Origin: Candidatus Micrarchaeota archaeon
GTDB lineage: Archaea > Micrarchaeota > Micrarchaeia > Anstonellales > Anstonellaceae
Direction of reading: 5' to 3'
Assembly: GCA_964650545.1 (NCBI GenBank)
Contig: CAZYTZ010000001.1
Location: forward strand, 23,686 to 87,685
DNA length: 64,000 bases
This document shows, piece by piece, positions 5,647 to 54,731 of the stretch. A program made the position numbers and the translations under genes. Each line of letters starts with the position of its first letter. The first letter of the stretch is position 1. The notes under the pieces are model-generated. The model saw only the letters and a list, made by a program, of their open reading frames with translations, did no database searches and was not told the DNA's origin.

Positions 5647-6177
5647 ATGTTCAAAAAATTGAATTTGTTTTCAAGAACAGAAATGAAAGTGCTATCGTTC
5701 ATCTCGAGGAAAGATGGCGAGCTTTACGAGCGGCAAATTGCAGATGGCGCAAAGGTGAGCGTTGGGTCGGCGAATTCAATACTCCGGGAATTCGCTGCAA
5801 TAGGGCTGATTTTGCAGGAAAGGAAGGGAAAAATGCTTTTTTACCAGAGGAACGACAGCAACCCGCTCCTGCGGCAATTCAAGGTCTTCTCAACAGTGAA
5901 TGAGCTAATGCCCTTTGTCGGCACCATCATGCCCCTTTGCAGCCGCATTGTCCTTTTTGGCAGCTGCGCGGAAGGCAGGAACGGGGAAGGAAGTGACATT
6001 GACCTTCTTATACTGGCACAGGAAAAGGAAAAGGTCAGGCGGCTGTCAGCGGAAAACCCACACATCCAGGCAATACTTCTAAGCCCTGCTGAGTATTCTC
6101 AGCTGGAAAGGAAGGACAAGCCCCTTTTCAGCCGGATAAGGACTGGGATAGAGATTTATGGTGGTGACAATGGATAG
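5647..6177 (+). CDS. Minimal nucleotidyltransferase (MNT) domain protein with an N-terminal winged helix.
   Basis: It carries the GS-x9-SDIDLLIL nucleotidyltransferase motif (LFGSCAEGRNGEGSDIDLLIL). It overlaps the downstream HEPN gene by 20 nt. Confidence 0.7.
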   Translation: MFKKLNLFSRTEMKVLSFISRKDGELYERQIADGAKVSVGSANSILREFAAIGLILQERKGKMLFYQRNDSNPLLRQFKVFSTVNELMPFVGTIMPLCSRIVLFGSCAEGRNGEGSDIDLLILAQEKEKVRRLSAENPHIQAILLSPAEYSQLERKDKPLFSRIRTGIEIYGGDNG

Positions 6178-6598
6178 CCGGTTTAGCCGTTGCCTGAAGG
6201 AAGGGAAGCTTGTGAAGATTGGCGTGCAGCCAGACTTGGCCAAAAAGGAGGCTGACGCGGCGGCATACGACCTTCAAAGCGCCGAGAAGTCGCTTGAGGA
6301 AGGCAACCCGAAATGGGCAACTGTCCAGGCATACTATTCCATGTTCCACACTGCAAAGGCGCTTGCCTTCCATAAGGGATACCGTGAAAAAAGCCACGCC
6401 TGCCTCTCAATAGCCCTAAAAGCCCTTTTTGTGGATGCCAACGAAATGGAAGCAGGGCAATTCGAGCATTTCAGGGACTGCATGGCGCTGCGCAAAGACG
6501 CGGACTACGGGCTTATCTATTCGGACAAGTCAGCCGAGGAAGTAGTCAGGTGGGCGCGCGAATTTTTGGCTGCTGCGGGCAAAATCCTGCCCAAATAG
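6158..6598 (+). CDS. HEPN domain protein, partner of the upstream MNT.
   Basis: The helical HEPN fold pattern (AKKEADAAAYDLQSAEKSLEEGNPKWATVQAYYSMFHTAKALAFHKGYREKSH) and overlap with the MNT gene fit a classical HEPN-MNT toxin-antitoxin arrangement. Confidence 0.7.
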   Translation: MVVTMDSRFSRCLKEGKLVKIGVQPDLAKKEADAAAYDLQSAEKSLEEGNPKWATVQAYYSMFHTAKALAFHKGYREKSHACLSIALKALFVDANEMEAGQFEHFRDCMALRKDADYGLIYSDKSAEEVVRWAREFLAAAGKILPK

Positions 6599-6605
6599 CC
6601 TGTCT

Positions 6606-6935
6606 TCAGATGAATTTCACGCCGCAGGCAGGGCAGGACACCATGTAGTAGTTCGCCACATAGCCGCACATCGGGCAGCGGTACTGCTGCTGGCTGGGCG
6701 GCGCGCGCTGCTCCACCAGGGAATGGCCGCAGTTCGAGCACTTTTCCGCTTTCAAGTCGTTTGCAGTATCGCATTTCGGGCACTTAATCCTGAACATGGA
6801 CTCAACATGCGTGCCGCACGACGGGCAGCGCTCCATGCCAAGCACCAAGTCAGCCTTGCATTTGGGGCACTTTGCCTTCATCTTCGCGTGCGGCTTGGGG
6901 CGAAGCGCATCTGATATCAAGTCGAGCATTCCCAT
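6606..6935 (-). CDS. Multi-zinc-ribbon protein with five CxxC pairs.
   Basis: It has CPKCKADL, CPSCG, CPKCD, CSNCG, CPMCG and CPACG repeats. The start is placed at ATG 6933-6935, which is 27 nt downstream of a minus-strand TTTTTATAG element, suggesting a leaderless mRNA. The ORF-track GTG at 6956 would leave no room for a promoter. Confidence 0.5.
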   Translation of the reverse strand: MGMLDLISDALRPKPHAKMKAKCPKCKADLVLGMERCPSCGTHVESMFRIKCPKCDTANDLKAEKCSNCGHSLVEQRAPPSQQQYRCPMCGYVANYYMVSCPACGVKFI

Positions 6936-6957
6936 AAGAAAAGTTCCGATGCGCACC

Positions 6958-6966
6958 TATAAAAAG
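6958..6966. promoter_or_regulatory. AT-rich TATA-like element (ctataaaaag). It could serve the minus-strand zinc-ribbon gene and possibly the plus-strand tRNA-Ala transcript.
   Basis: This is the only AT-rich octamer in the 6936-7067 intergenic region. It lies about 27 nt from the zinc-ribbon ATG and about 100 nt upstream of tRNA-Ala, with two hairpins (7017-7038 and 7044-7059) in between. Confidence 0.3.
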
Positions 6967-7067
6967 CCTTCACGTCTGAATGGGGAAGGCAAAATCCTCT
7001 GGGATTTTGCCATCTTCGTCGTGCCCGCAGGCACGACGTCTACCGAAAACCTGCGGGTTTTCGCTAT

Positions 7068-7259
7068 GGGCCCGTGGCGCAGTGGTAGCGCGCCTGCTTT
7101 GCAGAACCCTTTTGCTCGCTCCAGATGGGGACGCTCGCAAAAGCGTTCACGGAAAACGCAAATGGGTTTCAAAAAAGCAGGAGGCCGGGGGTTCGAAGGA
7201 CCTTTTTCGGGATGCCTAAAAAGCTCCGCCAAAAAGGGCTGAAATTCCCCCCGGGTCCA
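7068..7259 (+). tRNA. tRNA-Ala (anticodon UGC) with two introns: one in the anticodon loop (about 7104-7175, after position 37) and one in the T-loop (about 7198-7245, between positions 59 and 60).
   Basis: Manual fold. The acceptor GGGCCCG pairs with CGGGTCC, giving the G3:U70 alanine identity pair, and the discriminator is A73. The D-arm is GCGC-AGTGGTA-GCGC. The anticodon stem is CCTGC/GCAGG with loop TTTGCA...A. The T-arm is GGGGG-TTCGAA[intron]T-CCCCC. CCA is not encoded, and a T-run follows. Confidence 0.65.
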
Positions 7260-7273
7260 TTTTTTCTTTTTGC

Positions 7274-10200
7274 TTAGAAGTTCAAGCCAAATTTCAGGTA
7301 GAAGAGGAAGTCATTCTTGTCCCTGAAGCCTTCGTATCTGAAGCCCGCTCCCCCATAGCCGGTCGTGCCCATAAAGCGCCCCGTTTTCATGTACTCCAGC
7401 TCAATGTTCTTCTTGATTATGTCCTTATAGAACTGGGTGCCAAGGCCAAGGGCTATGCGGTTGGAGCCGAAATATCCCACTCCCTTCATCCCCACGTTTG
7501 TGAAGCCGTCGGAAAAGTCCCTGATGGAGCCCACGCGCGTCAGGTTGACGATGTATGTGACTTTTTTGCCAGCATGGGTGAACTGGAGCTTGTAAAAATC
7601 ATCAAGTGTGCTTGCCGAAGCCTCTATGACGTTGTTCTTTATTCCGATGCCGGCCTCAACGATGTACTTGTCCCGGCGCAAAGGCTCTTTCGTTTCCTGG
7701 GCAATGGCTGTTGGGTAATCCGGGATGGTCTTAAGAACGTCCTTCTCGGGCATGCCCCTGTCCAGCATTTCCTGCGCCGCAGCATCCTTTGATATGCGGG
7801 TGGCGATGATGACTGCCTTGAAGTTTGCGTTTTTGCTTTTGTACACGCCGCCCAATGTCTGGATTTTGCCTGGCGATTCCGCGCTGGTCATGGCGACTAT
7901 GCCCCACCTATTGTTGAAATCAAGGAAAGTGGAGACCATGGGGCCGGGAACGCCCATCTGCTTGCCGCTTGTAATGCTCACCACGCCGCCAAACGTCTTG
8001 TAGGTCCCGTCATCCTGCGGTGTCTGTCGCGTGAAGGTCAGCGATATGTCTGAAATGTCGGTTCCATAGCGCTTGAATATCGAGCTGTAGTCTGCACTGT
8101 TGAAGAGATTATTCATCGTCTTGCACATTCTGTCGCTCGCAGCATTCAGCTCCTGCTCCGTATGGTATGGGTTGTCCAGCACAGCCTGGTATTCCTCATA
8201 TGCTGAGCTGAGCACGGATATGTCCGTGTAAAGATACCCCCCCAAAAGCTCCTTGTCCTCGTTCGTCGGAGGGTTGTACCAGTTCATGGAAAGGTTAAAG
8301 CCGTATTCCACGCCCTTTTTGCTTTCGCCCTCAATCTTAATCGCGCCCTTGTATGATGTCCTGGTGCTGTTCGGGTAGTCATTGTACTGGAGCACATATT
8401 TCATGGGTATGCTCTGGAACTCGCCTTCAGTTCCGACCGTGGCGGAATTTATGGAGGTTTTTTTGGAGCCGTCAGGAAGTTCCTCGTCAGCCCAGCTGAA
8501 ATAGCCATAGTTCCTCAAAAGCGAGCCCGTGCCCTTCCCGTCCTTCGAATAGCTTTTGGACTGGTATGCCGTCCTGCCGCCTGCAAATCCACGGTCAGAG
8601 CCGGCGAACGAAAGGTTGAAGAGCGCTCCATCAAAGCTTTCGTGGCTATAGCCAACCGCGCCCACTCTCCCCAAGCTCTCAATTTTCCTGTAGCTGTCAA
8701 GCCTTGCCTGGCCATAATTGCTTCCAATGTAAAAGCCAGACGATGTCGGAAGGTCCTGTATTGTTCTTGCATCAAGCTCGTAGTAGCTTGCCCAGAAGGT
8801 GTGCTTGTGGTAGCCTTCCGGCTTGCCATCATACCCATCTCCGCGGGCAATGATGCCTGCAGCCGATTCCTTGTCAACCGTCATGCCCCCGACAGCTGCC
8901 ATGTCTAGCCTCTTGCCAAGCTCTTCGCTTCCCATGCCTATGAAAAATCCGACGTCGGTCGCCTGGCGCTCCTTCTGGTTGAGCACCCGCGCCTGCACAT
9001 AGCCAATGCCCTGCGCCTCCTTGTAGCCTATCACTCCTGCCCCCGCGCAATAATTCTGGACAAACTCGGAATTCCTGATGCCTTCCAGCTGCTGCCCAAG
9101 GTACTTTGTGATGTCGTTGCGGTATTCGTCGTTGAAATAAAATTCGACCCAGTTGCTGCCAGCAATTCTGTAGTAGACATGCGCCTCGTCGTAATACCAT
9201 TCGTTTTTGGACTGCGTCCCTGTGGCCTGGTGCACCTCAAGGGAGTAGTGCGGCTTTTGATTGGCATCCAAAACGGTCTTTTTTGACACCACATATATCT
9301 TCCCGTCAATTTCCTGCGAGCCAATGACGCCATCCTGCTTGTCCTTATTGCTGCTCAGAGTATCTGAGGTTATCTGAAGCTGCGAGGCAAGGCTGCTGTA
9401 ATTGGAATCTGAAATGCCGTTTTCGTCAAAGGTGAACAGCAGGGTGCTTGAGGACTCAGAGATGTTGTCTGCGCTGAAATAATGGCGGTTGAAGCGCGCA
9501 AGGAGCCGCGAGTTCTCGCCTGAAGCATTAAGCGTCTGGCTTATGTCCTGGGAAACAGTCTTTGTCTTATGCCCGAAAACAAGGTCAGGTTCAACATCTT
9601 TTCTGACGTAAGCCGACCCGTACGCGTCATCAATTATCATCCTGTCAAGGAACCCATCCTTTACCAGCTTGAAGTTTTTTGCCTGGTCGAGGAAGCTGAA
9701 CGTGTCTGACTGAGTGGTGTCTGTAATTTCCCTGTAATAAACGCCTCTTGCGTCAAGCAGCCCGCCCCTGTCTGTTTTCCCCAAAGCGCCCCCTCCACCG
9801 CCGGAGGTGGTGCTCCTCTCGGTCATCCCTCCTGCCGCAGCCAAGTACCCTGTCCCGCTCCTGTCAAAAAGTGCGGGGGATGTGCCTTGCGAGATGATTC
9901 TCCTGAATATCCTGTCAAGCTCAGCAGAGGCGCTGACTATGTCGAGGGAATATTCCGTAGATGCGCCCCTAAGGAAAATGTCCCTCAGGTACACCCCTGC
10001 CCAGCTCTTTTTCATGAAAACAGCCGATTGGGACTTCAGAACCTGCGCTTGCGACGGAATGTAGCTGTCGTTCCAAAGGTCATAGGGGCTTCTTGGGACC
10101 TCAATCGGCGTCCATTGGCCAAACCTGTGCTGCGGCAGCTGGTCGGTAAGGAGCCTGGTGGCATCGGTAAGGACCGACCTTTCGTATTCGCCGGTTATCA

Positions 10201-12139
10201 GGGCCGGGCTTACCCTGATGTACCCGTTTTTTACAGTAAACATCTGGTTGGTGAAATTGGCAAGCAGGTTGTCAGACCACAGGCGGCTTGTTGCGACGTT
10301 TGTTGTGAATTCCACCAGCTTTCCTATCCTGTTCTGGCTTTGGAATGCCGAGTATATCTGGTATGAATCCGAGAGCGCAAGCTGGAGGAGCTTTGACTTT
10401 GAGTTTATGTCTATCAGGTCGTACTCGTTCTTGTATATGTTGATGAACATCTCGGGCTTGCTGAGAAGCCAGAAAGACATGCCTACTGGGGCTCCATCCA
10501 GGCTCACGAAAATGTCCTTTGGCCTGTTCAGGCCGTTGGCCATGACTCCTGCCTCGGTGACTGTCAGGTCGAATTGGGAGCACTCAAGCATGAAACTGTC
10601 TCTCTCGGTTTTCAAAACATCCGGGTCCGTTGCAATTTCCCAAGCCCCTTCTGCGCCCAGGCCAGTAAGAGTTGTGAGGAAGCCGTCTATCTTGCCCTTA
10701 ACTGTGGCAAGCTGGCTGTTGGCGGCGAATTTCTGCGAAACCGAAGTGATGTCTGACGTGATTTTCTGGAACTCTGCTATGAAATCATCATGTTCAATCT
10801 CATGCGGATCTGCCAAGGCTTTTGCCATTATGCCCTTGAAGCTGTTCCAGGCATTGGCAAGCAGGATGACTGATGCCTGATACTCGTTGATTGTCTGCCC
10901 CCCTGCCATTCCAAGCCCCATTGGGGTTGAAAAAGCCTCGTTCGACCTTATCAGGTCAAGCCCTGCCACTGTGGAAAACATGTTGAATGCCGAGCGGTTT
11001 GACTGCCCCTTCTTGATCCCTTTTGGCAGAAGGACGGTCTTGTCCTTTGCCTCGAAAAGGTATTGTGCAGCATCCGGGTTGATGGCCTGGGCATCGCTGA
11101 AAAGCCTGTTCAGCTTATCCACGTTGTTTGCAAGTATGTTTGCAATGAATGCATAGCCAAGCGTAAGGGCGGAATTGCCGTCTTTTCCCTGGCGCGGGAA
11201 CCCGGCCGGGCTTGTGCCAAGCGCATTTGACAGCACATCATTCATCTTCCCAAGGTGCGTCGAGTCCCCGAATATCGCCCTTATTGCATAGTCCTTTGCC
11301 CTACCGTCGATGTTTTCCCCCTCAAAATCTTCTATTGCTGCAACTGCGGCCTCGGTGCTTCCTGCGCCAACATAGGCGGCTTTCAAAAGGTTGTCAATCC
11401 TGTTGAAGTGGTTGATGCAGCTTGCCACGCCGAATGCGAAATCCCCTACTGCGCGCTGGCTTGCGGATTCCACCTCCAGCTTGCCATCCTTGCCTTCGCC
11501 TATTTTAAGCCCGCCTTTAACCACGATGCCAGCGCCTTCAAGCCCTGCAAAGACGGTCTCTATTTGCCTAATGTAGGGCTTCCTATCTTCCTCTGGAATG
11601 AAGGCAAGGATGTAAAGGTTGCTGCTTATTGCAGCTATGCCGTCATCTATATCCTTTCCAATCGAAACGTAGTATTCCAAGTCGTTCCAGTTGGCGTAAA
11701 GGTTGAATTCATCGGTTTTCCTGCCTATCGTGTTCAATGCCTCTGAAATCGCCTGGGTGCTCTCGTTTATTATGGAAGCATCCTTGTCGGCAGCCCCTGC
11801 AACGGGCTGGTAGAAGGGATTGTCAACTTTTGCGATTTCGCCCTTCGCCCTGCTCAGTATCGCAGCTTCAGACAGGCCCTTCTTCATGCCGTTGTTTATG
11901 ATGTCAACAGAATTCAAGTAGATTGTCACTGCATAGTCCAAAAGCTTCTTGTTGCTGTCGCTGCTGTCTTTGGCATACAAATCATTTGCACAGAGGTGGA
12001 GGTTTTCCAACCCGGTCTTCAGGTCTCTGAGGCTTGTGGCGTTTTTTATGCCGTCAAGTATCCTTTTGATGGCTGGATTGCTGGAAACCTCAACATCTCC
12101 CAAGTCCAGGTTCTTTATCTGCCTAGCTCTAAACACCAT
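7274..12139 (-). CDS. Giant hypothetical protein (1621 aa) with no recognisable domain. Its C-terminus looks like a beta-strand-rich region ending ...FLFYLKFGLNF.
   Basis: It is an uninterrupted 4.9-kb ORF with an ATG start and is the last gene of a four-gene co-directional cluster. The C-terminal alternating hydrophobic pattern ends in a terminal Phe. Confidence 0.65.
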   Translation of the reverse strand: MVFRARQIKNLDLGDVEVSSNPAIKRILDGIKNATSLRDLKTGLENLHLCANDLYAKDSSDSNKKLLDYAVTIYLNSVDIINNGMKKGLSEAAILSRAKGEIAKVDNPFYQPVAGAADKDASIINESTQAISEALNTIGRKTDEFNLYANWNDLEYYVSIGKDIDDGIAAISSNLYILAFIPEEDRKPYIRQIETVFAGLEGAGIVVKGGLKIGEGKDGKLEVESASQRAVGDFAFGVASCINHFNRIDNLLKAAYVGAGSTEAAVAAIEDFEGENIDGRAKDYAIRAIFGDSTHLGKMNDVLSNALGTSPAGFPRQGKDGNSALTLGYAFIANILANNVDKLNRLFSDAQAINPDAAQYLFEAKDKTVLLPKGIKKGQSNRSAFNMFSTVAGLDLIRSNEAFSTPMGLGMAGGQTINEYQASVILLANAWNSFKGIMAKALADPHEIEHDDFIAEFQKITSDITSVSQKFAANSQLATVKGKIDGFLTTLTGLGAEGAWEIATDPDVLKTERDSFMLECSQFDLTVTEAGVMANGLNRPKDIFVSLDGAPVGMSFWLLSKPEMFINIYKNEYDLIDINSKSKLLQLALSDSYQIYSAFQSQNRIGKLVEFTTNVATSRLWSDNLLANFTNQMFTVKNGYIRVSPALITGEYERSVLTDATRLLTDQLPQHRFGQWTPIEVPRSPYDLWNDSYIPSQAQVLKSQSAVFMKKSWAGVYLRDIFLRGASTEYSLDIVSASAELDRIFRRIISQGTSPALFDRSGTGYLAAAGGMTERSTTSGGGGGALGKTDRGGLLDARGVYYREITDTTQSDTFSFLDQAKNFKLVKDGFLDRMIIDDAYGSAYVRKDVEPDLVFGHKTKTVSQDISQTLNASGENSRLLARFNRHYFSADNISESSSTLLFTFDENGISDSNYSSLASQLQITSDTLSSNKDKQDGVIGSQEIDGKIYVVSKKTVLDANQKPHYSLEVHQATGTQSKNEWYYDEAHVYYRIAGSNWVEFYFNDEYRNDITKYLGQQLEGIRNSEFVQNYCAGAGVIGYKEAQGIGYVQARVLNQKERQATDVGFFIGMGSEELGKRLDMAAVGGMTVDKESAAGIIARGDGYDGKPEGYHKHTFWASYYELDARTIQDLPTSSGFYIGSNYGQARLDSYRKIESLGRVGAVGYSHESFDGALFNLSFAGSDRGFAGGRTAYQSKSYSKDGKGTGSLLRNYGYFSWADEELPDGSKKTSINSATVGTEGEFQSIPMKYVLQYNDYPNSTRTSYKGAIKIEGESKKGVEYGFNLSMNWYNPPTNEDKELLGGYLYTDISVLSSAYEEYQAVLDNPYHTEQELNAASDRMCKTMNNLFNSADYSSIFKRYGTDISDISLTFTRQTPQDDGTYKTFGGVVSITSGKQMGVPGPMVSTFLDFNNRWGIVAMTSAESPGKIQTLGGVYKSKNANFKAVIIATRISKDAAAQEMLDRGMPEKDVLKTIPDYPTAIAQETKEPLRRDKYIVEAGIGIKNNVIEASASTLDDFYKLQFTHAGKKVTYIVNLTRVGSIRDFSDGFTNVGMKGVGYFGSNRIALGLGTQFYKDIIKKNIELEYMKTGRFMGTTGYGGAGFRYEGFRDKNDFLFYLKFGLNF

Positions 12140-12147
12140 TCGCCCAC

Positions 12148-14571
12148 CTACAATTGGCTTATCTCATAATGATTAATGGCCTTATTCGCAAGGTCGCCTA
12201 CTTCGGAAATACCCGCGAGGATCTCGATTATTCTAGAGTCTGTTGTCGTGCTTGCCCAATTCACAAACTCCCTCATTATTGCGTCTGTAGCGGCTTGGTC
12301 TATCTGCGTATCCCCTAGCTTTCCCTTTAGCAGCGCAGCATTGATTTCCTGCCTGTTTTTCGTGATGAATCCACTCAGGCGGGACATGCTCACTGGAAGC
12401 GCAGATTCGCCCCATCCCGCCTGCTCGCTTTCCTTCAGCCCCGCAATCCCGGCCGCCAGCTGCGCGGCGCCAAGCCTGCCCTTGGCCAATTTATCATCCA
12501 ATACCAGCCCCTCAAGATGGGAAGTGAGCCTTTCAGCCCCCACCCCCTCCAGCGCGGCTCGCACTGCCGTTTCATTCCCCAATGTCACAAGCCATTGCGG
12601 CAGGGCGACTGCTCGCGTCAGGTCAACGTCTCCAAATGCCGTGGCTGTTACCGCAACATCCTCAGTTATAGTGGTTTCCAGCTGGCTGGCGGTTTTCTCT
12701 TGCTGGCCCGTTGCCGCATTGTAGCCATTTATCGCAGATAGCACTTTTTGCCTGTCAAGGTTTAAGGTGCCATCCTCGCTTCTCAGGCCCGCCCTGTAGC
12801 TGCCATCCTCTTCCTTGAGGCTCGCCACGAGGCCGTCGAACAGCGAGTTTTCAGCCTCGGTGTCTATCTTTCCGTTCTTGTCAGTGTCGCACTTGGCAAG
12901 GATTGCCTGGTAAATGCCGGATGCCGCCCAGCCGCCTTCTGCCACCGCAGGGTCAAGCGCAATGAGCGCTGCAACGCTGTCAAGCTTTGGAACCCTGGCG
13001 GGCTTGGCATTCTCGCCTGCAATGAATGCAAACAAGTCTGCTGCCTGCCCGAGCTTTTCCTTCCCATTGAAGTAATTCAGCATTGCCTCGTTATTCTGCT
13101 CGTTTTCGAATATGATTGTTGCCCGCTTGCCCTTGGCCTCTGAGATTGCGCCAAGCTTCAAAAGGTCGGCTTTGAGCTCATGCATGATAAGCCTCTGCAC
13201 CCCCTCGTCATCCAGCACGCCCTCCTGCCCCTTCCCAAGCGCCGCCACGATTGCTTTGCGGTCAAAGTGGAGGTTTGACACACCTGCCTTGTCTGCAATC
13301 CCCTTGTCCAGAGCGTAAAAGCTGCTGCCTATCTTCTTCACAGTCCCGGTCTCGCCGCCGTTTTCCTTCACTTTCTTCCTGGCATCCCTCTCCACCACAA
13401 TGCCGAGCTCCGCCAGCCTGCCAAGCGCGCTCTTGTCAGTGATGCTCCCAACAAGCTTGCCATCATCATCCAGCGTGCCCGTGATTTTCGTTATCCTGCT
13501 GCAAATGGCCAAGGTTTCCCGGCTAACAGGCACTTTAACGGTCGATTCCCCGGCTTCCTTGACGAAAGCACCCTCTGCCTCCTGCACCGAGTACAGGCCC
13601 TCATCGTTCTTTTCCAAAGCCATTGCGCTGCCATCAAGAACCAGCTTCACGCGCCAGTCCTGCTGGTACACATTCACATCAGTGTAAGCGTCAAGCGCGC
13701 CCGGAGTCTCGGCCACATCCTCTGGCAATTCCACCTCGCCAGGCCTTTTCATTGCCTCCTCGTCCTCAACTTGTGCTTTGTCCCCAACTATTTTCTGGAA
13801 GTTTCTTTGCCAGAAGCTGTCTTTCCTCATGCTGTCAAGCGCAAGCAGGGCATTTTTCACAGCCACTTTCCTGTCCTGCCCATCCTCTGCTTTTGGCAGC
13901 TTGTTGAAGTCCTTGTTGGTCTCCTTGCTGTTCCTGCCGCACAGCATGGTGAAGTATGCGTCAAACAGCTTGCGCTCGTTTGCGCTCATCTCAGTCGCCT
14001 TCCAGTCAAACTCCTGCTCCAGCCAGCCGCGCCTTACCATGTAATCAACAGTGGCTGATACGTTCTTGTCTATCCTCTCCTTTGTAAGCGTTAGGAAGGC
14101 GAACTTGCTGTTTATCTCATCAGCCATGCCATACGCATGACCAAGGAGCTTGTTCTCTGCAGCGGAGGCCTCAGGGACAGGAGCATTCTTGACGCCTGGC
14201 TCTGCGCCGTATTTCAGATAAGAGGAAATCGCATCTATGGCATCAGCGCAATCCTTAGCGTCATTCTCTTTTCCGAGCTCAGCATAGAGCTTTTTTGCAG
14301 CCAAATAGTTCCGGTATGCCAGCTGGTAATTCCCGCCTTCTTCCTTGTCATAGTGGTTTATTGTCAGGTTCCAATGCGCGTCCGCCATTATCACTTTGGC
14401 GTCATCTCTCTGGAGGGTGGTCGCATTCGGCGCCCTCAGGGCTTCATTGCATTTTGATATGGCAAGCCTGTACTCTTCCACAGTGGCGTCTGGCTTGTTT
14501 TTTAGACCTTCTGCGTCGGCCAACAGGCCTGCAACATCAACAGCCTGTGTCGTCTGGGTGACCATTGCCAT
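12148..14571 (-). CDS. Large hypothetical protein (807 aa), predicted mostly alpha-helical, containing an EF-hand-like loop (DTDKNGKIDTEAE).
   Basis: It has an ATG start and sits 8 nt upstream of the 1621-aa gene. No catalytic motifs were recognised. Confidence 0.65.
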   Translation of the reverse strand: MAMVTQTTQAVDVAGLLADAEGLKNKPDATVEEYRLAISKCNEALRAPNATTLQRDDAKVIMADAHWNLTINHYDKEEGGNYQLAYRNYLAAKKLYAELGKENDAKDCADAIDAISSYLKYGAEPGVKNAPVPEASAAENKLLGHAYGMADEINSKFAFLTLTKERIDKNVSATVDYMVRRGWLEQEFDWKATEMSANERKLFDAYFTMLCGRNSKETNKDFNKLPKAEDGQDRKVAVKNALLALDSMRKDSFWQRNFQKIVGDKAQVEDEEAMKRPGEVELPEDVAETPGALDAYTDVNVYQQDWRVKLVLDGSAMALEKNDEGLYSVQEAEGAFVKEAGESTVKVPVSRETLAICSRITKITGTLDDDGKLVGSITDKSALGRLAELGIVVERDARKKVKENGGETGTVKKIGSSFYALDKGIADKAGVSNLHFDRKAIVAALGKGQEGVLDDEGVQRLIMHELKADLLKLGAISEAKGKRATIIFENEQNNEAMLNYFNGKEKLGQAADLFAFIAGENAKPARVPKLDSVAALIALDPAVAEGGWAASGIYQAILAKCDTDKNGKIDTEAENSLFDGLVASLKEEDGSYRAGLRSEDGTLNLDRQKVLSAINGYNAATGQQEKTASQLETTITEDVAVTATAFGDVDLTRAVALPQWLVTLGNETAVRAALEGVGAERLTSHLEGLVLDDKLAKGRLGAAQLAAGIAGLKESEQAGWGESALPVSMSRLSGFITKNRQEINAALLKGKLGDTQIDQAATDAIMREFVNWASTTTDSRIIEILAGISEVGDLANKAINHYEISQL

Positions 14572-14584
14572 CTCCTCCTCAAAA

Positions 14585-17500
14585 TCACTTCAGCTTCAGG
14601 TTCTTCTTGGCTTTCGAAGTACCCGCCTTGGTCTCTTGCACTTCTGGCGCTGCGTTCACAACAGTGTTCGTGTCGCTTGCATTAAGTTCTACTGGCGGAA
14701 CAACAGGCTTTATTGTAGTGTCTGGCGTCTGTCCCTGCGCAAACTTCTCAAGCATTATTGTCCGCTCATCCGCAGGCGTATTCACAATCCCCTGCAGGTA
14801 ATCTCGCATGATTTTAGGCATCTGCGAGCTGTCAGGGGCAGTAAGCGTGACGGCATTCACAAAGCTGGAAAAGCTTTCCGGCTTGCTTGCTATCTCGTTG
14901 AATATGTCTCGCTGTTCATTGGTGAAAGTCATGTCAGCCCTTGCCATGATTTCCCGCATTGCTATCTTGTTGGCTGATTCCTGCTCCCCTGCCTGTGTTG
15001 GGGATGCCTGCACGAACTGCACTCCTGTGATTCCCCTGTTCGCGTAGAGCACGCCATTGTCAACAGTGAAGTTGCCAAGCAGCACCTTGTCTTTCGAGAG
15101 CACCTGGTAAGTTGTGCCTTCAGCAGGGGAAAACACCTTCCCGTCCCCTGCCAAGAGCCTGCCATTCGCGTCAGTTGTGCATGCGATTTCTTTCTTGTCA
15201 TCCCCTACAAGCACAAGGTTCCGGCTGGCAAGCCGCGCGCTGTTGGGCGCGTAGAGCACGACTGCGCCGTTCTCAAGGTCAAAATACGGCGGTTTCACAT
15301 CCACGATCAGCAGCGTCTTCCTGTCAAAGTCCTTCTGCGCGCTGATTTCAATCCTGTGCCTGCCAAAGCCAAGATCGCTCAGGAAGATCCCCTCCCTATT
15401 GCTCTCCCTCTTCGCATCCCTCAGCTCCCCATCAACCAGTCCGATTCTCTGCACCTCGTTGCCATCCGTCCGATAATATATCTTCCCATCATTCTTGCCC
15501 AAAAAGGTGGGGAGGTACTTGAGGTCCAGGCTCGCGATGCCCTCTCCCGGAAGAATGGTTGCTGATTTTACTGTGGTCTTCAGCTTCTTGTCGTATGCTT
15601 CTTCGGTTGCCACCACTCCTGCGTGCGTGAGCCTTCCGGTAAGCGCAGTCACAGGGACATACTGCGCCTTGCTCCAGACCATCTTGCCCAATTTGCCCAG
15701 GCCAACTCCGATGCCAACCCCTCCATCTTTCACAAGGGCGCCTATCATTCCTGGCGCAGCAGGTCCAGTCCAGCTTGCCCACCCAGTGCCTTGCAGGAAC
15801 CGGCCCACAAGCCCCTTTCCATAGTATAGGGACTCCAAGTTGTCCGCAGTTGCCCCAGTATACATGTCTTTTGCCACGGCCGATGTCCACCAGGTAATTT
15901 TCTTAGCTGATTCCTTCAGGGCATTTGCGGCACCTGCCTGGACTGCCTCTTCCACAAGATTGCGGCTGGCGCGAATACCTTCAATTTCAGTCCCTTCAAA
16001 GCCAGCTTTCCGAAGTGCATTTGGCAGGCTTTCCCAAATTTTGCCAGTCAGTGCCTTCCCGTCCTTTGCCGCCTTCTCCAGGGCGTCCTTGGAAACTCCT
16101 TTGAGGAGGTCGCTTGCAACCCCTTCCAGCACCACCTGCCTCATCTGCTTTGCCATCTCGTCCTTCATCTTTGGAAGCACAATTCCAATCTCTTCCTTCA
16201 CGATGGCTGCCAGCTCGGCATCCGCCATCAAAATCTTACCGTTTACCGTAACCTTTCCCTTGACTCTGTTCACAACCCCGCCGACCCAGTTTTCTAATTT
16301 GGTTTCCATCCCGGCCCTTTTCCATACTTCCTGTGGCACGTCCTTGAATGCATCTACAAAGCTCTTTCGCAGCCTGTCTTGTAAGGCAGGAACGAATTCA
16401 TCAAGCTCGCGCAGCGTCTTTTTCCCAATCTTCTTCCCAACCAATGCCGTGGTGGTCGTGATTCCTTTTAACGTTTCCCTTATCCATTCCTCGCTGCCGA
16501 CCTTCTTGGCGGCATCCTCAAGGCTTTTCTTCATCGGGGTAATCAAGAGGTTTTTCTTGACAAACCTCACGGCATTGACCTCAGCATCCAGCACTGCTCC
16601 GCTCAGCCCGACTGAGATGTTGCGGCTCATGCCCTTCACCATCTTTTCACCGAGTTTCTTCTCCACAATCTCTCGCACAGCCGCCTCGCTGAGCTCGCGA
16701 TTGCCAACATCTTTCATTATCTCCTTCAATGTCTTGCCAAAAAGATCGCCTGTTTCTTTGGACACAACTGCCCTTATCTGGTCTTTCGTCAGGCGCTTAC
16801 CCATATTCGTCCAGATGTCGTCTACCAGCATGTTTTCAAAATCGCGCATGGCTTCTTTGGCAAAGAGGCGAGATTTCTCCATGCCTCCTGGCACAACCCT
16901 CACTTCCTTTGCCAAAGCATTTGCTGTCTCCCTGAAGGCTATGAGATTATTCCGTACGATTTCCCTGATTCCCTTCGTAGTGAACTCCTTTGCCAGCAAT
17001 TTTTCCGCCTTTGCCCTGAGGACCGCCTCGCTGCCTGGGATTAGCCTGCCGAACGTGAGGCTCTTGGTGAAAGACCCGTCAATCACGGCTCCCTTCCAAA
17101 GCTTTACCGAGCCTTTCCCAAGGCTTTTGAGAAGCTTAGCTCCGATGAATACATCTGATATCACGCCTATGGTTGCAAGGCTGGCAGTAGTAAAACCTTC
17201 CTGATACAAATATCCGTCCTTGTTGCGGTTTCCCCGCTTCATCTTTTCAATGCCATCTAGGAGGTCTGGGACGCTTATGACCCACCTCAGGGCTTTCCCC
17301 AAAAATGTCCTCTTCTTGACGCCTATTATTTCTACCTCTGCAAGCTGCCAGTTGACCGCGTTCACAGGTATACTCCTAACATCGTCGTATATCTTCTCGC
17401 AAAATTTCTTAGCCTGCTCAACGCTATTTGCCCCTGAAAGCCCCTCTTTCAGGTCTTCCCTGGCTGCTCCCAGAAAAACATCTGCATACGTGGCCCAGCC

Positions 17501-17962
17501 GGTTCCGCCAACGGCTTCCTGGCTGCCTGCCCATATGTCTTTTGCACCCTTCAAATCATTGCTTGCCAGGCATTTTTCAATGGAAGCAAGCCTGTTGTAG
17601 GCCGCGAGCTTGAGTTCGACGTAGGATGCAAAGCTGTCCAGTGCAACGAATGCACGCGCCGCTGTTCCCATATCAGTGATAGCTGTTAGGGCACCTACGA
17701 AACCATTCATCTGCGCCAGCGCAGCTTGCAGGCTCGGGTCTTTTTTGAGAAATTGGGAGTCCTTGACCAAGTCATTTAACCCAGCAATAGCTTTTTTGAG
17801 GTCATCAAAACTGTTTACATTCCCCCCCAAAATGCCATTTACCATCCCGCGCACATTTCCCATGCCGCGTGCCATGGCTGACCATTCCTTATCCATCTTG
17901 GCATAATTTGGGCCAAGCGCGTTTGCTGGGGTCTCCTTGGTTGCTAATTGGAATACAAACAT
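14585..17962 (-). CDS. Large hypothetical protein (about 1125 aa) with a long Lys/Glu/Ala-rich helical N-terminal half and a Gly/beta-rich C-terminal half.
   Basis: The start is placed at ATG 17960-17962 (MFVFQLATKETPANA...), 11 nt downstream of the preceding gene's stop. The ORF-track GTG at 18061 would overlap the upstream gene by 88 nt. Confidence 0.6.
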   Translation of the reverse strand: MFVFQLATKETPANALGPNYAKMDKEWSAMARGMGNVRGMVNGILGGNVNSFDDLKKAIAGLNDLVKDSQFLKKDPSLQAALAQMNGFVGALTAITDMGTAARAFVALDSFASYVELKLAAYNRLASIEKCLASNDLKGAKDIWAGSQEAVGGTGWATYADVFLGAAREDLKEGLSGANSVEQAKKFCEKIYDDVRSIPVNAVNWQLAEVEIIGVKKRTFLGKALRWVISVPDLLDGIEKMKRGNRNKDGYLYQEGFTTASLATIGVISDVFIGAKLLKSLGKGSVKLWKGAVIDGSFTKSLTFGRLIPGSEAVLRAKAEKLLAKEFTTKGIREIVRNNLIAFRETANALAKEVRVVPGGMEKSRLFAKEAMRDFENMLVDDIWTNMGKRLTKDQIRAVVSKETGDLFGKTLKEIMKDVGNRELSEAAVREIVEKKLGEKMVKGMSRNISVGLSGAVLDAEVNAVRFVKKNLLITPMKKSLEDAAKKVGSEEWIRETLKGITTTTALVGKKIGKKTLRELDEFVPALQDRLRKSFVDAFKDVPQEVWKRAGMETKLENWVGGVVNRVKGKVTVNGKILMADAELAAIVKEEIGIVLPKMKDEMAKQMRQVVLEGVASDLLKGVSKDALEKAAKDGKALTGKIWESLPNALRKAGFEGTEIEGIRASRNLVEEAVQAGAANALKESAKKITWWTSAVAKDMYTGATADNLESLYYGKGLVGRFLQGTGWASWTGPAAPGMIGALVKDGGVGIGVGLGKLGKMVWSKAQYVPVTALTGRLTHAGVVATEEAYDKKLKTTVKSATILPGEGIASLDLKYLPTFLGKNDGKIYYRTDGNEVQRIGLVDGELRDAKRESNREGIFLSDLGFGRHRIEISAQKDFDRKTLLIVDVKPPYFDLENGAVVLYAPNSARLASRNLVLVGDDKKEIACTTDANGRLLAGDGKVFSPAEGTTYQVLSKDKVLLGNFTVDNGVLYANRGITGVQFVQASPTQAGEQESANKIAMREIMARADMTFTNEQRDIFNEIASKPESFSSFVNAVTLTAPDSSQMPKIMRDYLQGIVNTPADERTIMLEKFAQGQTPDTTIKPVVPPVELNASDTNTVVNAAPEVQETKAGTSKAKKNLKLK

Positions 17963-17973
17963 CTCAAACACCC

Positions 17974-18369
17974 CTAAGAGCCCTCCGAGGGCGCTTCGTT
18001 TGCCAGCACGTATCTCATGCTGTAATCTATGAACTCCTTCCCGCCGTTCTCGTCCAGCCACGCCTTCACTGCCTTGAAATTCCTTGAAAGCTCGACATCA
18101 GAGTTAATCTGCCCTTTGAAATCTGGTCTGCTTGGATAAGCATAGTAGACCAACATAGCATAAATTTGCAGGACTTTTTCAGCCTCACCGTGTATCGAAA
18201 CTCTCGCCTGCGCGTTCTTTGTTGAATTATATTTCTCAAACAGCGTGGCAACATACTCCTTTGCCAGGCGGTTGGTGAACCACAGCTTGTAGTCGCTGTT
18301 CGCCACCGCGTCCTCAATCGTCTTGTAAAAGTCGGGCGCGCCTTCCACGAATTCGTTTTTTCCTTTCAT
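17974..18369 (-). CDS. Hypothetical protein (131 aa), first gene of the giant-protein cluster.
   Basis: The start is placed at ATG 18367-18369 (MKGKNEFVEGAPDFYK...), preceded by a GGGGTGG SD-like motif. A TTTAAATA-like element lies further upstream on the minus strand (plus strand about 18491-18500). Confidence 0.45.
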   Translation of the reverse strand: MKGKNEFVEGAPDFYKTIEDAVANSDYKLWFTNRLAKEYVATLFEKYNSTKNAQARVSIHGEAEKVLQIYAMLVYYAYPSRPDFKGQINSDVELSRNFKAVKAWLDENGGKEFIDYSMRYVLANEAPSEGS

Positions 18370-24168: not shown

Positions 24169-24230
24169 ACTCCCGCGCAAATCATGGCGGCAGATGATGA
24201 GCATTACGACTCTGACTTGTGATGACGTGA

Positions 24231-24245
24231 CTTGACTCTGATGCC
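24231..24245 (+). repeat. Copy 1 of the exact 15-mer CTTGACTCTGATGCC, which is also found at 29217 and 32488.
   Basis: It is an exact sequence match. A gactctga half-copy lies 26 nt upstream. Confidence 0.6.
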
Positions 24246-54604: not shown

Positions 54605-54731
54605 CGCCTCGGACAGGACTTGAACCTGTGACCTATGGATCGCTGCCGCGCACGTGCGCGATAACAGTCCATCGCTCTACCTTTCAGTCTCACGAGGACC
54701 GTCCCTCATGAAAAGACTGAGCTACCGAGGC
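54605..54731 (-). tRNA. tRNA-Asn (anticodon GUU) with two introns: about 34 nt in the D-loop (plus-strand 54682-54715) and about 21 nt in the anticodon loop (plus-strand 54642-54662).
   Basis: Manual fold of the reverse complement. The acceptor is GCCTCGG/CCGAGGC with discriminator G73. The D-stem is GCTC/GAGC with loop AGT[intron]GGTA. The anticodon stem is ATGGA/TCCAT with loop CTGTTA[intron]. The T-arm is ACAGG-TTCAAGT-CCTGT. Both introns contain self-complementary segments (AGTCT...AGACT, CGCGCAC/GTGCGCG). Confidence 0.65.

What the first reader, a model, noticed from the sequence alone, without database searches (positions are those of the whole stretch)
7068..7259. tRNA-Ala(UGC) with two introns, one at the canonical 37/38 position and one inside the T-loop (59/60)
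The 192-nt locus folds into a canonical tRNA-Ala only if about 72 nt are removed from the anticodon loop and about 48 nt from the T-loop. The alanine identity pair G3:U70 and discriminator A73 are present. T-loop introns are rare, and tRNA introns at non-canonical positions are known only from Archaea. This fixes the domain of the contig and is also a useful phylogenetic marker.
Basis: seen in the sequence. Interest (0 to 1): 0.55.

Follow-up and report, generated by a model that had tools for sequence, protein, structure and literature searches.

The report
Two-intron archaeal tRNA-Ala gene
This is a real alanine tRNA gene from a tiny uncultured archaeon (Micrarchaeota), split by two short introns; that layout is normal for the group, but one intron is a copy of a small hairpin repeat that is also found in many other tRNA and rRNA genes and between genes.

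Summary
Window 7068-7259 (+) is tRNA-Ala(UGC), with exons 7068-7103, 7176-7197 and 7246-7259. A 72-nt intron sits at 37/38 and a 48-nt intron at 59/60. The spliced 72-nt product is called tRNA-Ala by ARAGORN, and both junctions can form bulge-helix-bulge motifs.

The contig is from Micrarchaeota (DPANN). Of 48 species with a similar tRNA-Ala exon 1, 15 have both introns and 9 have only the T-loop one. Twenty-one share the exact 59/60 register, and the split T-stem covaries. ARMAN-2 (same phylum) is published to have 56% disrupted tRNA genes, with its epsilon2 endonuclease cleaving a 59/60 intron in vitro. The finding is therefore a new member of a known kind.

One result was unexpected. Intron 1 (7104-7156) is a copy of a discrete 40-70-nt hairpin element, [G/C]AAC-CC-TTTT...AAAA-GC-GTT[C/G]-ACGGAAAA. 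It occurs in at least 120 metagenome contigs: in anticodon, D- and T-loops of many tRNAs, in 16S rRNA, and free-standing between genes. It is absent from Rfam and from the papers I could search. It suggests these introns arise from a mobile hairpin repeat.

A second two-intron tRNA, Asn(GUU), lies at 54731-54605 (-).

The parts
7068..7259 (+). tRNA-Ala(UGC) gene, 192 nt, three exons and two introns; no encoded CCA
   Evidence: Sequence. The spliced product is called tRNA-Ala(tgc) by ARAGORN. The locus is identical in 6 assemblies.
7068..7103 (+). Exon 1: positions 1-37 (position 17 absent). Acceptor 5' strand, D-arm, anticodon stem 5' strand, anticodon TGC at 7100-7102, A37.
7104..7175 (+). 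Intron 1, 72 nt, canonical position 37/38. Bases 7104-7156 are a copy of the dispersed hairpin element. Bases 7157-7175 are the site-specific 3' part that builds the BHB (outer helix GGGTT 7164-7168, central-helix strand CAAA 7170-7173).
   Evidence: BHB geometry. 91-94% identity to the introns of L010/L030/L038 although flanks are 73-79% identical. Element family.
7098..7101 (+). BHB-1 central helix, exon strand (U32-G35), pairing with 7170-7173. The 5' bulge is 7102-7104 and the 3' bulge is 7174-7176.
   Evidence: all four pairs standard; central 1111, exon helix 1111, intron helix 11011
7176..7197 (+). Exon 2: positions 38-59. Anticodon stem 3' strand, variable loop AGGCC, T-stem 5' strand GGGGG, T-loop TTCGAA.
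7198..7245 (+). Intron 2, 48 nt, in the T-loop at 59/60. It has the same stem / C.C mismatch / T-run hairpin architecture as intron 1, with tail GCC-AAAAA. Its inner 23 nt are identical to the T-loop intron of L048. Its 3' end TGAA (7240-7243) pairs with T-loop TTCG (7192-7195).
7246..7259 (+). Exon 3: positions 60-73. T60, T-stem 3' strand CCCCC, acceptor 3' strand CGGGTCC (with U70), discriminator A73.
   Evidence: The T-stem halves covary across 20 distinct sequences.
7260..7271 (+). T-rich run TTTTTTCTTTTT directly after A73; probable archaeal oligo-T terminator (inferred)
   Evidence: T-runs also follow the gene in many relatives.
6958..6965 (+). TATAAAAA box, conserved with its flank (..TATAAAAAGCCTTCA..) in syntenic relatives. 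Probable promoter of the tRNA, possibly shared with the divergent zinc-ribbon gene 6606-6935 (-). Inferred.
   Evidence: In L016, L021, L022, L023, L026, L044, L052 and L054 the box lies 30-37 nt from the tRNA. In the window it lies 102 nt away.
6988..7063 (+). Three consecutive perfect tetraloop hairpins (6988-7011, 7017-7038, 7044-7063) between the TATA box and the tRNA. They are probably a structured 5' leader of about 80 nt, and an insertion relative to the closest relative L021.
   Evidence: Fold z-score -5.96, with 0 of 200 shuffles as stable. No copies elsewhere in the window or loci. Comparison of leaders.

Best explanation
This is the functional tRNA-Ala(UGC) gene of a Micrarchaeota (DPANN) archaeon.

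Inferred pathway:
- It is transcribed from the conserved TATA box at 6958-6965 as a precursor of about 285 nt, carrying a three-hairpin 5' leader.
- The leader is trimmed, normally by RNase P.
- The archaeal tRNA splicing endonuclease (EndA) cuts at four sites: 7103/7104, 7175/7176, 7197/7198 and 7245/7246. Each cut falls after the second nucleotide of a 3-nt bulge that flanks a 4-bp helix.
- An RtcB-type ligase joins the three exons, and CCA is added.
- The result is a canonical 72-nt (+CCA) tRNA with G3:U70 and A73.

Shown here:
- the exon-intron anatomy;
- the BHB-competent pairing at both junctions;
- conservation of the same layout and splice register in relatives;
- covariation between the two T-stem halves that the intron separates.

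Inferred from published Micrarchaeota biochemistry: the enzymes and the order of steps.

The intron bodies are not random filler. Intron 1 is a copy of a discrete, dispersed hairpin element, and intron 2 is a diverged relative. The element also sits in other tRNA loops, in rRNA and between genes. The most likely history is that such an element inserted into the gene and was tolerated, because adjoining sequence gives a BHB that a broad-specificity EndA can cut.
For: - Anatomy and in-silico splicing.
- All cloverleaf and BHB central-helix pairs are standard. With the BHB enforced, the rest of the precursor still folds into intron hairpins (-73.1 kcal/mol, against an MFE of -80.4).
- In the anticodon-arm context, the BHB core with outer helix h' reaches -30.8 kcal/mol, close to the unconstrained -35.7.
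- Lineage: 48 genomes match the exon-1 pattern and are nearly all labelled Micrarchaeota. The flanking thiolase operon and zinc-ribbon gene are 73-79% identical and syntenic with labelled Micrarchaeota/Micrarchaeia/Anstonellaceae MAGs such as L021, L038, L026, L010 and L054.
- Intron tally: 15 species with both introns, 9 with the T-loop intron only, 4 with the anticodon-loop intron only.
- The 59/60 register is identical in 21 sequences.
- Junction alignment A3: T-stem 100% paired, with 4 pair types at 50:64. The BHB central helix is 88.8% paired. Slid controls reach at most 68%. 0 of 500 shuffles reach the observed score.
- Published: ARMAN-2 has 56% disrupted tRNA genes and 59/60 introns, and its epsilon2 EndA cleaves a 59/60 intron in vitro (PMC3239211; PMC5829648).
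- A second two-intron tRNA in the same window, Asn-GUU, shows that this is how the genome treats tRNAs.
- Element nature of intron 1.
Against: - There are no expression data. Splicing, ligation and aminoacylation are all inferred.
- No EndA or RtcB gene was found in the 64-kb window (10 unassigned ORFs scanned; the others were read by eye only). The EndA type of this organism is therefore unknown.
- The BHB at 37/38 is slightly off strict geometry. Either U7169 is unpaired opposite the 5' bulge, or G7104.U7169 pairs and leaves a 2-nt bulge. The 59/60 outer helix has an A.G mismatch at its second pair.
- BHB-like geometry is common by chance.
- By sequence alone the T-loop splice site could be 57/58, 58/59 or 59/60 (TTCG-A-A|...A-A-A-T|T). 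Only the BHB register selects 59/60.
- Whether another, uninterrupted tRNA-Ala(UGC) exists elsewhere in the genome cannot be checked from one window.
Confidence: 0.9

Rival explanations
1. The locus is a decaying tRNA pseudogene whose apparent introns are just insertions. The working tRNA-Ala(UGC) lies elsewhere in the genome.
For: Standard tRNA finders miss it. Both intron bodies look like copies of a dispersed repeat, so they could be disruptive insertions. BHB-like geometry arises often by chance.
Against: The exons reconstitute a flawless cloverleaf with every identity element. Exons are nearly invariant across species while the introns turn over. The T-stem halves split by the intron covary, and the intron's 3' end keeps complementarity to the T-loop in 21 sequences. 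The promoter box and terminator are retained. No other tRNA-Ala is in the window. About half of the Micrarchaeota tRNA-Ala genes sampled are built the same way.
Confidence: 0.04
2. The introns are self-splicing group I or group II introns, or the intron hosts a guide RNA (C/D or H/ACA) that explains its conservation.
For: Micrarchaeota rRNA genes do carry group I introns (PMC6125680). Some archaeal tRNA introns encode C/D box guides (own knowledge). Intron 1 is much better conserved than the flanking genes.
Against: At 72 and 48 nt the introns are several-fold too short for a group I or II catalytic core. An Rfam search of 6850-7350 at E<=10 finds no intron or ribozyme match; the only snoRNA-type match (Afu_513, 11.5 bits, E=4.9) is chance-level. 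Read from the sequence, neither intron contains a C box (RUGAUGA). CUGA occurs once, in intron 2 (7239-7242). The base after the hairpin is ACG, not ACA, and there is no pseudouridylation pocket. A true C/D sRNA elsewhere in the window (24189-24243) shows what one looks like here.
Confidence: 0.02
3. On the origin of intron 1: the shared hairpin sequence is not a mobile element. It is an RNA motif kept by selection for a function in splicing or afterwards, for example as a protein-binding site or as a stable circular intron RNA. It arose or spread at the RNA level only, by reverse splicing into BHB-like sites.
For: The stem covaries while its centre varies, as expected for selection on structure. 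The tail ACGGAAAA is invariant in 7 of the 10 labelled tRNA-Ala introns aligned (GCGGAAAA in L039, ACGAAAAG in L024/L047), none of which was selected for it. In tRNA hosts the element starts at or within 1-2 nt of the 5' splice site. It is absent from viral contigs.
Against: Roughly 60% of copies are outside tRNA and rRNA genes, mostly intergenic, and their flanks show no BHB enrichment (40%, the same as controls, against 68% for tRNA copies). Reverse splicing therefore cannot explain them. Copies occur in tandem and abutting start or stop codons. In the window's own precursor the element's hairpin (S1) is about 12 kcal/mol less stable than the alternative BHB-competent fold. That argues the hairpin is not what the pre-tRNA needs.
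Confidence: 0.25

Closest known systems
Disrupted tRNA genes of Candidatus Micrarchaeum acidiphilum ARMAN-2 and their epsilon2 splicing endonuclease (Fujishima et al. 2011, PMC3239211; Hirata et al. 2012, PMC3488258)
   Same: Same phylum. Multiple introns per tRNA gene. Position 59/60 in the T-loop is a recurrent site (tRNA-Cys GCA; tRNA-Pro GGG with 53/54 plus 59/60). BHB or relaxed hBH junctions. Standard finders miss the genes.
   Different: The host here is tRNA-Ala(UGC), combining 37/38 with 59/60. The organism is a freshwater/groundwater-type Micrarchaeota with about 53% GC, not the acid-mine ARMAN lineage. Its EndA type is unknown. I could not check whether ARMAN-2's own tRNA-Ala has this layout.
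Multiple-intron tRNAs and intron transposition in Thermoproteales (Sugahara et al. 2008; Fujishima et al. 2010, cited in PMC10714607 and PMC3239211)
   Same: Up to three BHB introns per tRNA at non-canonical sites. The same intron sequence is found in different tRNAs and positions, which is interpreted as intron transposition.
   Different: A different superphylum (TACK, with (alpha-beta)2 EndA). As far as the texts I read go, those transposed introns were described within tRNA genes. Here the same discrete element is also abundant outside tRNA and rRNA genes and has a defined covarying hairpin plus a fixed 8-nt tail.
Bacterial REP/BIME elements and archaeal palindrome-associated transposable elements (PATEs) of the IS200/IS605 system (own knowledge; not tested)
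   Same: Short (40-70 nt), mostly intergenic, often tandem, an imperfect hairpin with covarying stem next to a conserved single-stranded motif, and no target-site duplication.
   Different: No associated transposase was looked for or found. No conserved target tetranucleotide is evident upstream. REP and PATE elements are not known to serve as tRNA introns.

Membership tests
Archaeal BHB (endonuclease-spliced) tRNA intron | Removing the intron restores a canonical cloverleaf tRNA | tested here: met
   The 72-nt spliced product is called tRNA-Ala(tgc) by ARAGORN, and its MFE fold is a cloverleaf at -38.8 kcal/mol.
Archaeal BHB (endonuclease-spliced) tRNA intron | Both splice sites lie in 3-nt bulges separated by a 4-bp helix (hBHBh'), or in a relaxed hBH/HBh' version | tested here: met
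   37/38: central helix UUUG:CAAA, exon helix 4/4, intron helix 11011. 59/60: central helix UUCG:UGAA, exon helix 4/4, intron helix 10111. Both are near-strict. The geometry alone is weakly specific.
Archaeal BHB (endonuclease-spliced) tRNA intron | The junction structure is conserved or covaries in homologues | tested here: met
   21 sequences share the 59/60 register. The central helix is 88.8% paired. The partner of position 57 is AU 6, GC 5, GU 1, unpaired 8. The T-stem is 100% paired with covariation. The alignment was built by me in a fixed register, so it leans towards the structure.
Archaeal BHB (endonuclease-spliced) tRNA intron | Cleavage by EndA and ligation by RtcB; a broad-specificity EndA present in the genome | tested here: inconclusive
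   No EndA domain was found in 10 unassigned ORFs of the window. The rest of the genome is not available. Enzymology is not testable with these tools.
tRNA-Ala | G3:U70 wobble pair, discriminator A73, alanine anticodon | tested here: met
   G7070:T7256, A7259, and TGC at 7100-7102.
Group I / group II self-splicing intron | A catalytic core of at least about 200 nt, recognisable by covariance models | tested here: not met
   The introns are 72 and 48 nt. There is no Rfam intron match at E<=10.
Transposed ('mobile') archaeal tRNA introns, as in Thermoproteales | Near-identical intron sequence in different tRNA genes and/or at different positions | tested here: met
   The sub-family with centre CTCCAGRTGGGNACG occurs in anticodon-loop introns whose flanks I read by eye as tRNA-Leu(CAG), Leu(UAA), Gly(UCC), Gln(CUG) and Glu(UUC), and in a D-loop, a T-loop and after a stop codon. 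The L125 copy is 53/53 identical to window 7104-7156.
MITE (miniature inverted-repeat transposable element) | Terminal inverted repeats plus a fixed-length target-site duplication | tested here: not met
   The inverted termini exist as the S1/H1 stem. There is no systematic flanking duplication: repeats of >=10 nt occur in 3 of 109 copies against 1 of 545 controls.
REP / IS200-IS605-derived palindromic element | Hairpin plus conserved adjacent motif, no duplication, intergenic, mobilised by a Y1 (TnpA/RAYT) transposase | tested here: inconclusive
   The first three features are met. The transposase was not searched for.
Intron-encoded C/D box guide RNA | C (RUGAUGA) and D (CUGA) boxes at the two ends, with a guide region | tested here: not met
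   Neither intron has a C box (sequence). The only Rfam snoRNA-type match overlapping the introns (Afu_513, 11.5 bits, E=4.9) is chance-level.

The most novel reading that the evidence does not exclude
Intron 1 of this gene, and in diverged form intron 2, is a copy of a previously undescribed, discrete hairpin repeat of Micrarchaeota-type genomes, 40-70 nt long. The repeat spreads through the genome. Wherever it lands in a tRNA or rRNA gene next to sequence that can form a bulge-helix-bulge, it becomes a spliceable intron. That would be a direct, observable route for the birth of archaeal introns from a mobile element, with free-standing and intronic copies of the same family side by side.
Probability: 0.4. 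Interest if true: 0.72.

Novelty: new member of a known kind. Interest (0 to 1): 0.42.

Why it matters
As a tRNA gene it matters mainly for annotation. Standard tools miss it, and they mis-delimit the tRNA-Asn in the same window. Micrarchaeota genomes will therefore look as if they lack essential tRNAs, and spurious ORFs get called over such loci (one was called over this locus in L005).

The wider interest is the intron body. How archaeal BHB introns are gained is a long-standing open question. Here the same short hairpin element is seen as free intergenic copies and as introns in the D-, anticodon- and T-loops of many tRNAs and in 16S rRNA. It has sharp ends and a covarying stem. That makes the idea that introns start as insertions of a mobile repeat testable, both with population metagenomes (filled versus empty sites) and with splicing assays.

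Tried and rejected
- ARAGORN and Rfam on the raw locus miss the gene or give only a 21-bit partial match.
- Near-identical metagenome contigs L001-L008 carry no comparative signal because they are the same population.
- My first spliced aligner mis-handled L012, L017, L018, L030 and L041; I corrected these by hand.
- A blind BHB scan of 6970-7280 gave 7 hits against 3.3 in shuffles. It is too unspecific to prove anything, and it found no convincing BHB that would remove the hairpin leader.
- I looked for copies of the leader hairpins and of both introns elsewhere in the window and found none beyond chance.
- MAFFT on the full introns put some rows out of register, so I used loop-deleted alignments in a fixed register. 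These are chimeric by construction and lean towards the structure.
- ARAGORN-based host typing of the element copies gives unreliable anticodon names when other introns remain. I used it only for in/out-of-tRNA status and the rough position.
- Target-site duplication was tested twice. It is not systematic.
- A viral-contig scan for the element gave zero hits.
- A Pfam scan of 10 unassigned ORFs for a splicing endonuclease found none.
- A taxonomic link of the element-bearing metagenome contigs to Micrarchaeota was obtained for only 11 of 120 by DNA similarity. The rest are unassigned.
- Rejected for the element: C/D or H/ACA guide (no boxes), group I/II intron (too short), CRISPR repeat (no regular spacing; the tandem copies repeat their spacers).

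Full report
**1. The observation**

- Exon 1 is 7068-7103: GGGCCCG-TG-GCGC-AGTGGTA-GCGC-G-CCTGC-TTTGCA.
- Intron 1 is 7104-7175 (72 nt).
- Exon 2 is 7176-7197: A-GCAGG-AGGCC-GGGGG-TTCGAA.
- Intron 2 is 7198-7245 (48 nt).
- Exon 3 is 7246-7259: T-CCCCC-CGGGTCC-A.

G3:U70 (7070:7256), A73 (7259) and anticodon TGC (7100-7102) are all present. No CCA is encoded. A T-run (7260-7271) follows directly.

ARAGORN finds only tRNA-His and tRNA-Phe in the window. Rfam at gathering threshold finds those two plus a third tRNA, but not this one. At a relaxed threshold the locus gets a partial 21-bit tRNA match. After both introns are removed, ARAGORN calls the 72-nt product tRNA-Ala(tgc). With only intron 2 removed it calls tRNA-Ala with a 72-nt canonical intron. 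With only intron 1 removed, or unspliced, it calls nothing. The unconstrained MFE fold of the 192-nt precursor already keeps the acceptor, D, anticodon and T stems.

**2. The junctions**

A bulge-helix-bulge needs a 4-bp central helix between two 3-nt bulges, with cleavage after the second bulge nucleotide.
- At 37/38 the central helix is U32-G35 (7098-7101) with CAAA (7170-7173).
- At 59/60 it is T-loop TTCG (7192-7195) with TGAA (7240-7243).

All pairs are standard. The outer intron helices each have one imperfection (11011 and 10111). By sequence alone the T-loop cut could be 57/58, 58/59 or 59/60. Only the BHB register selects 59/60.

The geometry is not strong evidence on its own. A blind scan of 6970-7280 gives 7 BHB-like sites against 3.3 in shuffles, and under my filter it recovered the 37/38 junction but not the 59/60 one. 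The weight of the case rests on the exact reconstitution of a tRNA and on comparison with other species.

**3. Whose gene it is**

The neighbours are archaeal:
- an HMG-CoA synthase / thiolase / DUF35 operon, aIF5B and dCTP deaminase;
- Trm1;
- ABCE1, Pelota, RFC and Hjc, recognised by eye;
- a textbook C/D box sRNA.

Eight metagenome contigs carry the identical locus and are one population.

A degenerate exon-1 pattern found 48 genomes in the species-level collection. Nearly all are labelled Candidatus Micrarchaeota, Micrarchaeia or Anstonellaceae. In NCBI taxonomy that is Archaea; Nanobdellati; Microcaldota. The thiolase operon and the zinc-ribbon gene next to the tRNA are syntenic with several of these genomes and 73-79% identical at the DNA level.

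**4. The layout is a lineage trait**

Spliced alignment plus hand correction gives this tally:
- 15 species with both introns;
- 9 with only the T-loop intron;
- 4 with only the anticodon-loop intron (one about 382 nt long);
- 20 with none (5 of them not Micrarchaeota).

In 21 sequences, including the window, the T-loop junction has one register: T-stem, UUCR, AA|intron...NGAA-NN|U60, T-stem. On that junction alignment the T-stem halves are 100% paired, with four pair types at 50:64. The central helix is 88.8% paired. Opposite position 57, C occurs only with G, and U is the commonest partner of A. Registers slid by 1-3 columns drop to 68% paired or less. A split stem that covaries means the gene is under selection as a tRNA.

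Published work fits. ARMAN-2, in the same phylum, has 56% of its tRNA genes disrupted. It has 59/60 introns in tRNA-Cys and tRNA-Pro, and its epsilon2 endonuclease cuts a 59/60 intron in vitro (PMC3239211; PMC5829648).

The window holds a second case. The Rfam "tRNA" at 54606-54697 is mis-delimited. The real gene is tRNA-Asn(GUU) at 54731-54605 (-), with a 31-nt D-loop intron (54713-54683) and a 21-nt 37/38 intron (54661-54641). Both are strict BHBs, and the spliced 75-nt product is called tRNA-Asn.

**5. Mechanism**

Shown: the anatomy, the BHB-competent pairing, and the conservation and covariation.

Inferred:
- transcription from the conserved TATAAAAA box (6958-6965);
- removal of a leader of about 80 nt;
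- four EndA cuts;
- RtcB ligation of three exons;
- CCA addition.

No EndA gene is in the window, so the enzyme type is unknown.

**6. The leader**

In syntenic relatives the TATA box lies 30-37 nt from the tRNA. In the window it lies 102 nt away. The extra sequence is three consecutive perfect hairpins with 4-nt loops (6988-7011, 7017-7038, 7044-7063). Their fold z-score is -5.96. They have no copies elsewhere, and I found no BHB that would excise them. L010, L038 and L051 also have long structured leaders, but with unrelated sequence. The function is unknown. The simplest reading is an inserted, transcribed leader that is removed with the 5' end.

**7. The unexpected part: intron 1 is a copy of a dispersed hairpin element**

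Intron 1 is 91-94% identical to the introns of L010, L030 and L038, although the flanking genes are only 73-79% identical. The closest relative by flanks (L021) carries a different intron at the same site.

Across ten tRNA-Ala introns, the first four intron bases pair with the four bases after an inner hairpin. The pairs seen are GAAC/GTTC, GGAC/GTCC, AAAC/GTTT, GAGC/GCTC, CAAC/GTTG and CGAC/GTCG. This stem is followed by a C.C mismatch, a CTTTT/AAAAG stem and the tail AC-GGAAAA. On a loop-deleted alignment, 98.6% of cells are paired, 5 of 9 pairs change on both sides, 0 of 500 shuffles reach the score, and slid registers are at most 59% paired.

The same pattern gave zero hits in 2.9 million viral contigs.

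The four bases upstream of the pattern were not specified, yet they read [G 66% / C 26%] A 95% A 97% C 91%. They covary with the specified S (G-C 76, C-G 29, other 12). Conservation stops abruptly at both ends.

Hosts, some read by eye and some typed by in-silico splicing, are:
- anticodon-loop introns of many tRNAs;
- D-loop and T-loop introns;
- 16S rRNA (for example ...GGATTAGATA|element...CCCCGTAGTCC);
- directly after tRNA 3' ends;
- tandem copies;
- many intergenic sites.

Of the non-tRNA copies, 49 of 68 lie outside ORFs, although ORFs cover 76% of those contigs. Several abut a stop codon, or a start codon on the other strand. BHB-type flanks are enriched only around tRNA copies (68%, against 40% for both non-tRNA copies and controls). 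There is no systematic target-site duplication.

One sub-family, with the same centre as the window's copy, sits in tRNA-Leu, Gly, Gln and Glu, in a D-loop, in a T-loop and after a stop codon. One of those copies is 53/53 identical to window 7104-7156. The window itself has exactly one strict copy, and none appears in shuffles.

Intron 2 has the same architecture (GGA / C.C / C:G / T5...A5, tail GCC-AAAAA) and shares a 23-nt block with L048's T-loop intron.

In the window's precursor the BHB-competent fold, in which the intron's 5' end pairs with its 3' end, is about 12 kcal/mol better than the element's own hairpin. The RNA should therefore present a spliceable junction.

The element is not in Rfam 15. 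I found no paper describing it, but the library covers open-access papers only.

**8. What the element is**

This is not settled. The best reading, at about 0.4, is a mobile hairpin repeat that becomes an intron when it lands in a structural RNA gene beside BHB-forming sequence.

The main rival, at about 0.25, is an RNA motif kept by selection or spread by reverse splicing. That does not explain the many intergenic copies without BHB flanks.

The element resembles REP/PATE elements: a hairpin plus a fixed tail, no duplication, intergenic, often tandem. That resemblance is a lead only, because no transposase was sought. Most element-bearing metagenome contigs could not be assigned taxonomically.

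**9. Verdict**

The finding is real and correctly interpreted. It is a new member of a known kind, because multi-intron tRNAs with 59/60 introns have been documented in Micrarchaeota since 2011.

Exclusivity to Archaea fails on C. merolae (PMC3728597) and on bacterial group I/II introns (PMC13011429).

The extra value is the element, which deserves a follow-up of its own.

Noticed in passing
window 54605-54731 (-): A second two-intron tRNA: tRNA-Asn(GUU), with a 31-nt D-loop intron (54713-54683) and a 21-nt 37/38 intron (54661-54641), both strict BHB. ARAGORN misses it. Rfam's hit 54606-54697 is mis-delimited because it takes intron sequence for the acceptor stem.
   Followed up: yes
window 6988-7063 (+): Three consecutive perfect tetraloop hairpins (6988-7011, 7017-7038, 7044-7063) lie between the conserved TATA box (6958-6965) and the tRNA. 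Fold z-score is -6. They are an insertion of about 65-70 nt relative to the closest relative, unique in the window, and of unknown function.
   Followed up: partly
L057-L176 (metagenome contigs); window 7104-7156: A dispersed 40-70-nt hairpin element, [G/C]AAC-CC-TTTT..AAAA-GC-GTT[C/G]-ACGGAAAA. It is found in anticodon, D- and T-loop introns of many tRNAs, in 16S rRNA (L150, L156, L159), after tRNA 3' ends (L127, L135), in tandem (L070, L084, L091, L094, L129) and between genes. It is not in Rfam and not on viral contigs.
   Followed up: partly
window 24189-24243 (+): A canonical archaeal C/D box sRNA: C box GATGATGA, D' CTGA, C' TGATGA, D CTGA. It scores below Rfam gathering thresholds (29.6 bits against 45) for several sR families.
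   Followed up: partly
window 5647-6598 (+): The nucleotidyltransferase/HEPN gene pair lies between the DUF35 gene and the zinc-ribbon gene. It is absent at that place in the syntenic relatives L021, L038, L026 and L010, where the alignments run straight across. It therefore looks like a species-specific insertion of a toxin-antitoxin-type module.
   Followed up: partly
L010 (about 30-105 nt upstream of its tRNA-Ala); L130 1468-1600: The first 14 nt of the tRNA (GGGCTCGTGGCGCA in L010; GGGCCCGTAGCTCA in L130) are repeated upstream of the intact gene, with a hairpin element in between. It looks like a partial target duplication left by an insertion or integration event.
   Followed up: no
L018, directly 3' of its intron-less tRNA-Ala: The sequence TTGCCAGCCCAAGGGGGTTGCACCCCCTTAGTCCGGCACCGCCCAAAC follows A73. 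It is homologous to the T-loop introns of L021, L038 and L044. The same element family thus sits outside the gene in one species and inside the T-loop in others.
   Followed up: no
L030 6760-6945 (-): This tRNA-Ala gene has both introns but seems to lack position 43 and the variable loop (AGCAG directly followed by T-stem AGGGG). It may be aberrant, mis-assembled or spliced differently.
   Followed up: no
L012 5188-5650 (+): A tRNA-Ala(UGC) with a single, very A-rich 37/38 intron of about 382 nt, made of degenerate AAAAGAAAGAACAC-type repeats.
   Followed up: no
L093 (10 nt: GCGACTACTA) and L152 (24 nt: CTAGATGGATATTTTCGAATGCTC): Two element copies are flanked by long exact direct repeats of the target, unlike the other 100 or so copies, which have none.
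   Followed up: partly
window 7274-18061 (-): Three consecutive very large ORFs (1621, 807 and 1158 aa) lie right next to the tRNA. The 1621-aa protein has no Pfam match. The other two were not scanned.
   Followed up: no
window 41062-42630, 44658-46241, 46242-47813 (all -): Three paralogous cysteine-rich proteins of about 525 aa of unknown function, two of them adjacent. Recognised by eye from the translations and not searched.
   Followed up: no
window 62623-63906 (-): An AAA-ATPase-like C-terminus is preceded by a stretch with LAGLIDADG-like motifs (..FLRAYYSGDGSV..). This suggests an intein-bearing gene that runs past the listed ORF. Seen by eye only.
   Followed up: no
L015, L033, L035, L047, L050: In these species the tRNA-Ala(UGC), with its T-loop intron, lies just downstream of the 16S rRNA 3' end, in the rRNA operon spacer. 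In the window and its syntenic relatives the gene stands alone next to a zinc-ribbon gene.
   Followed up: no
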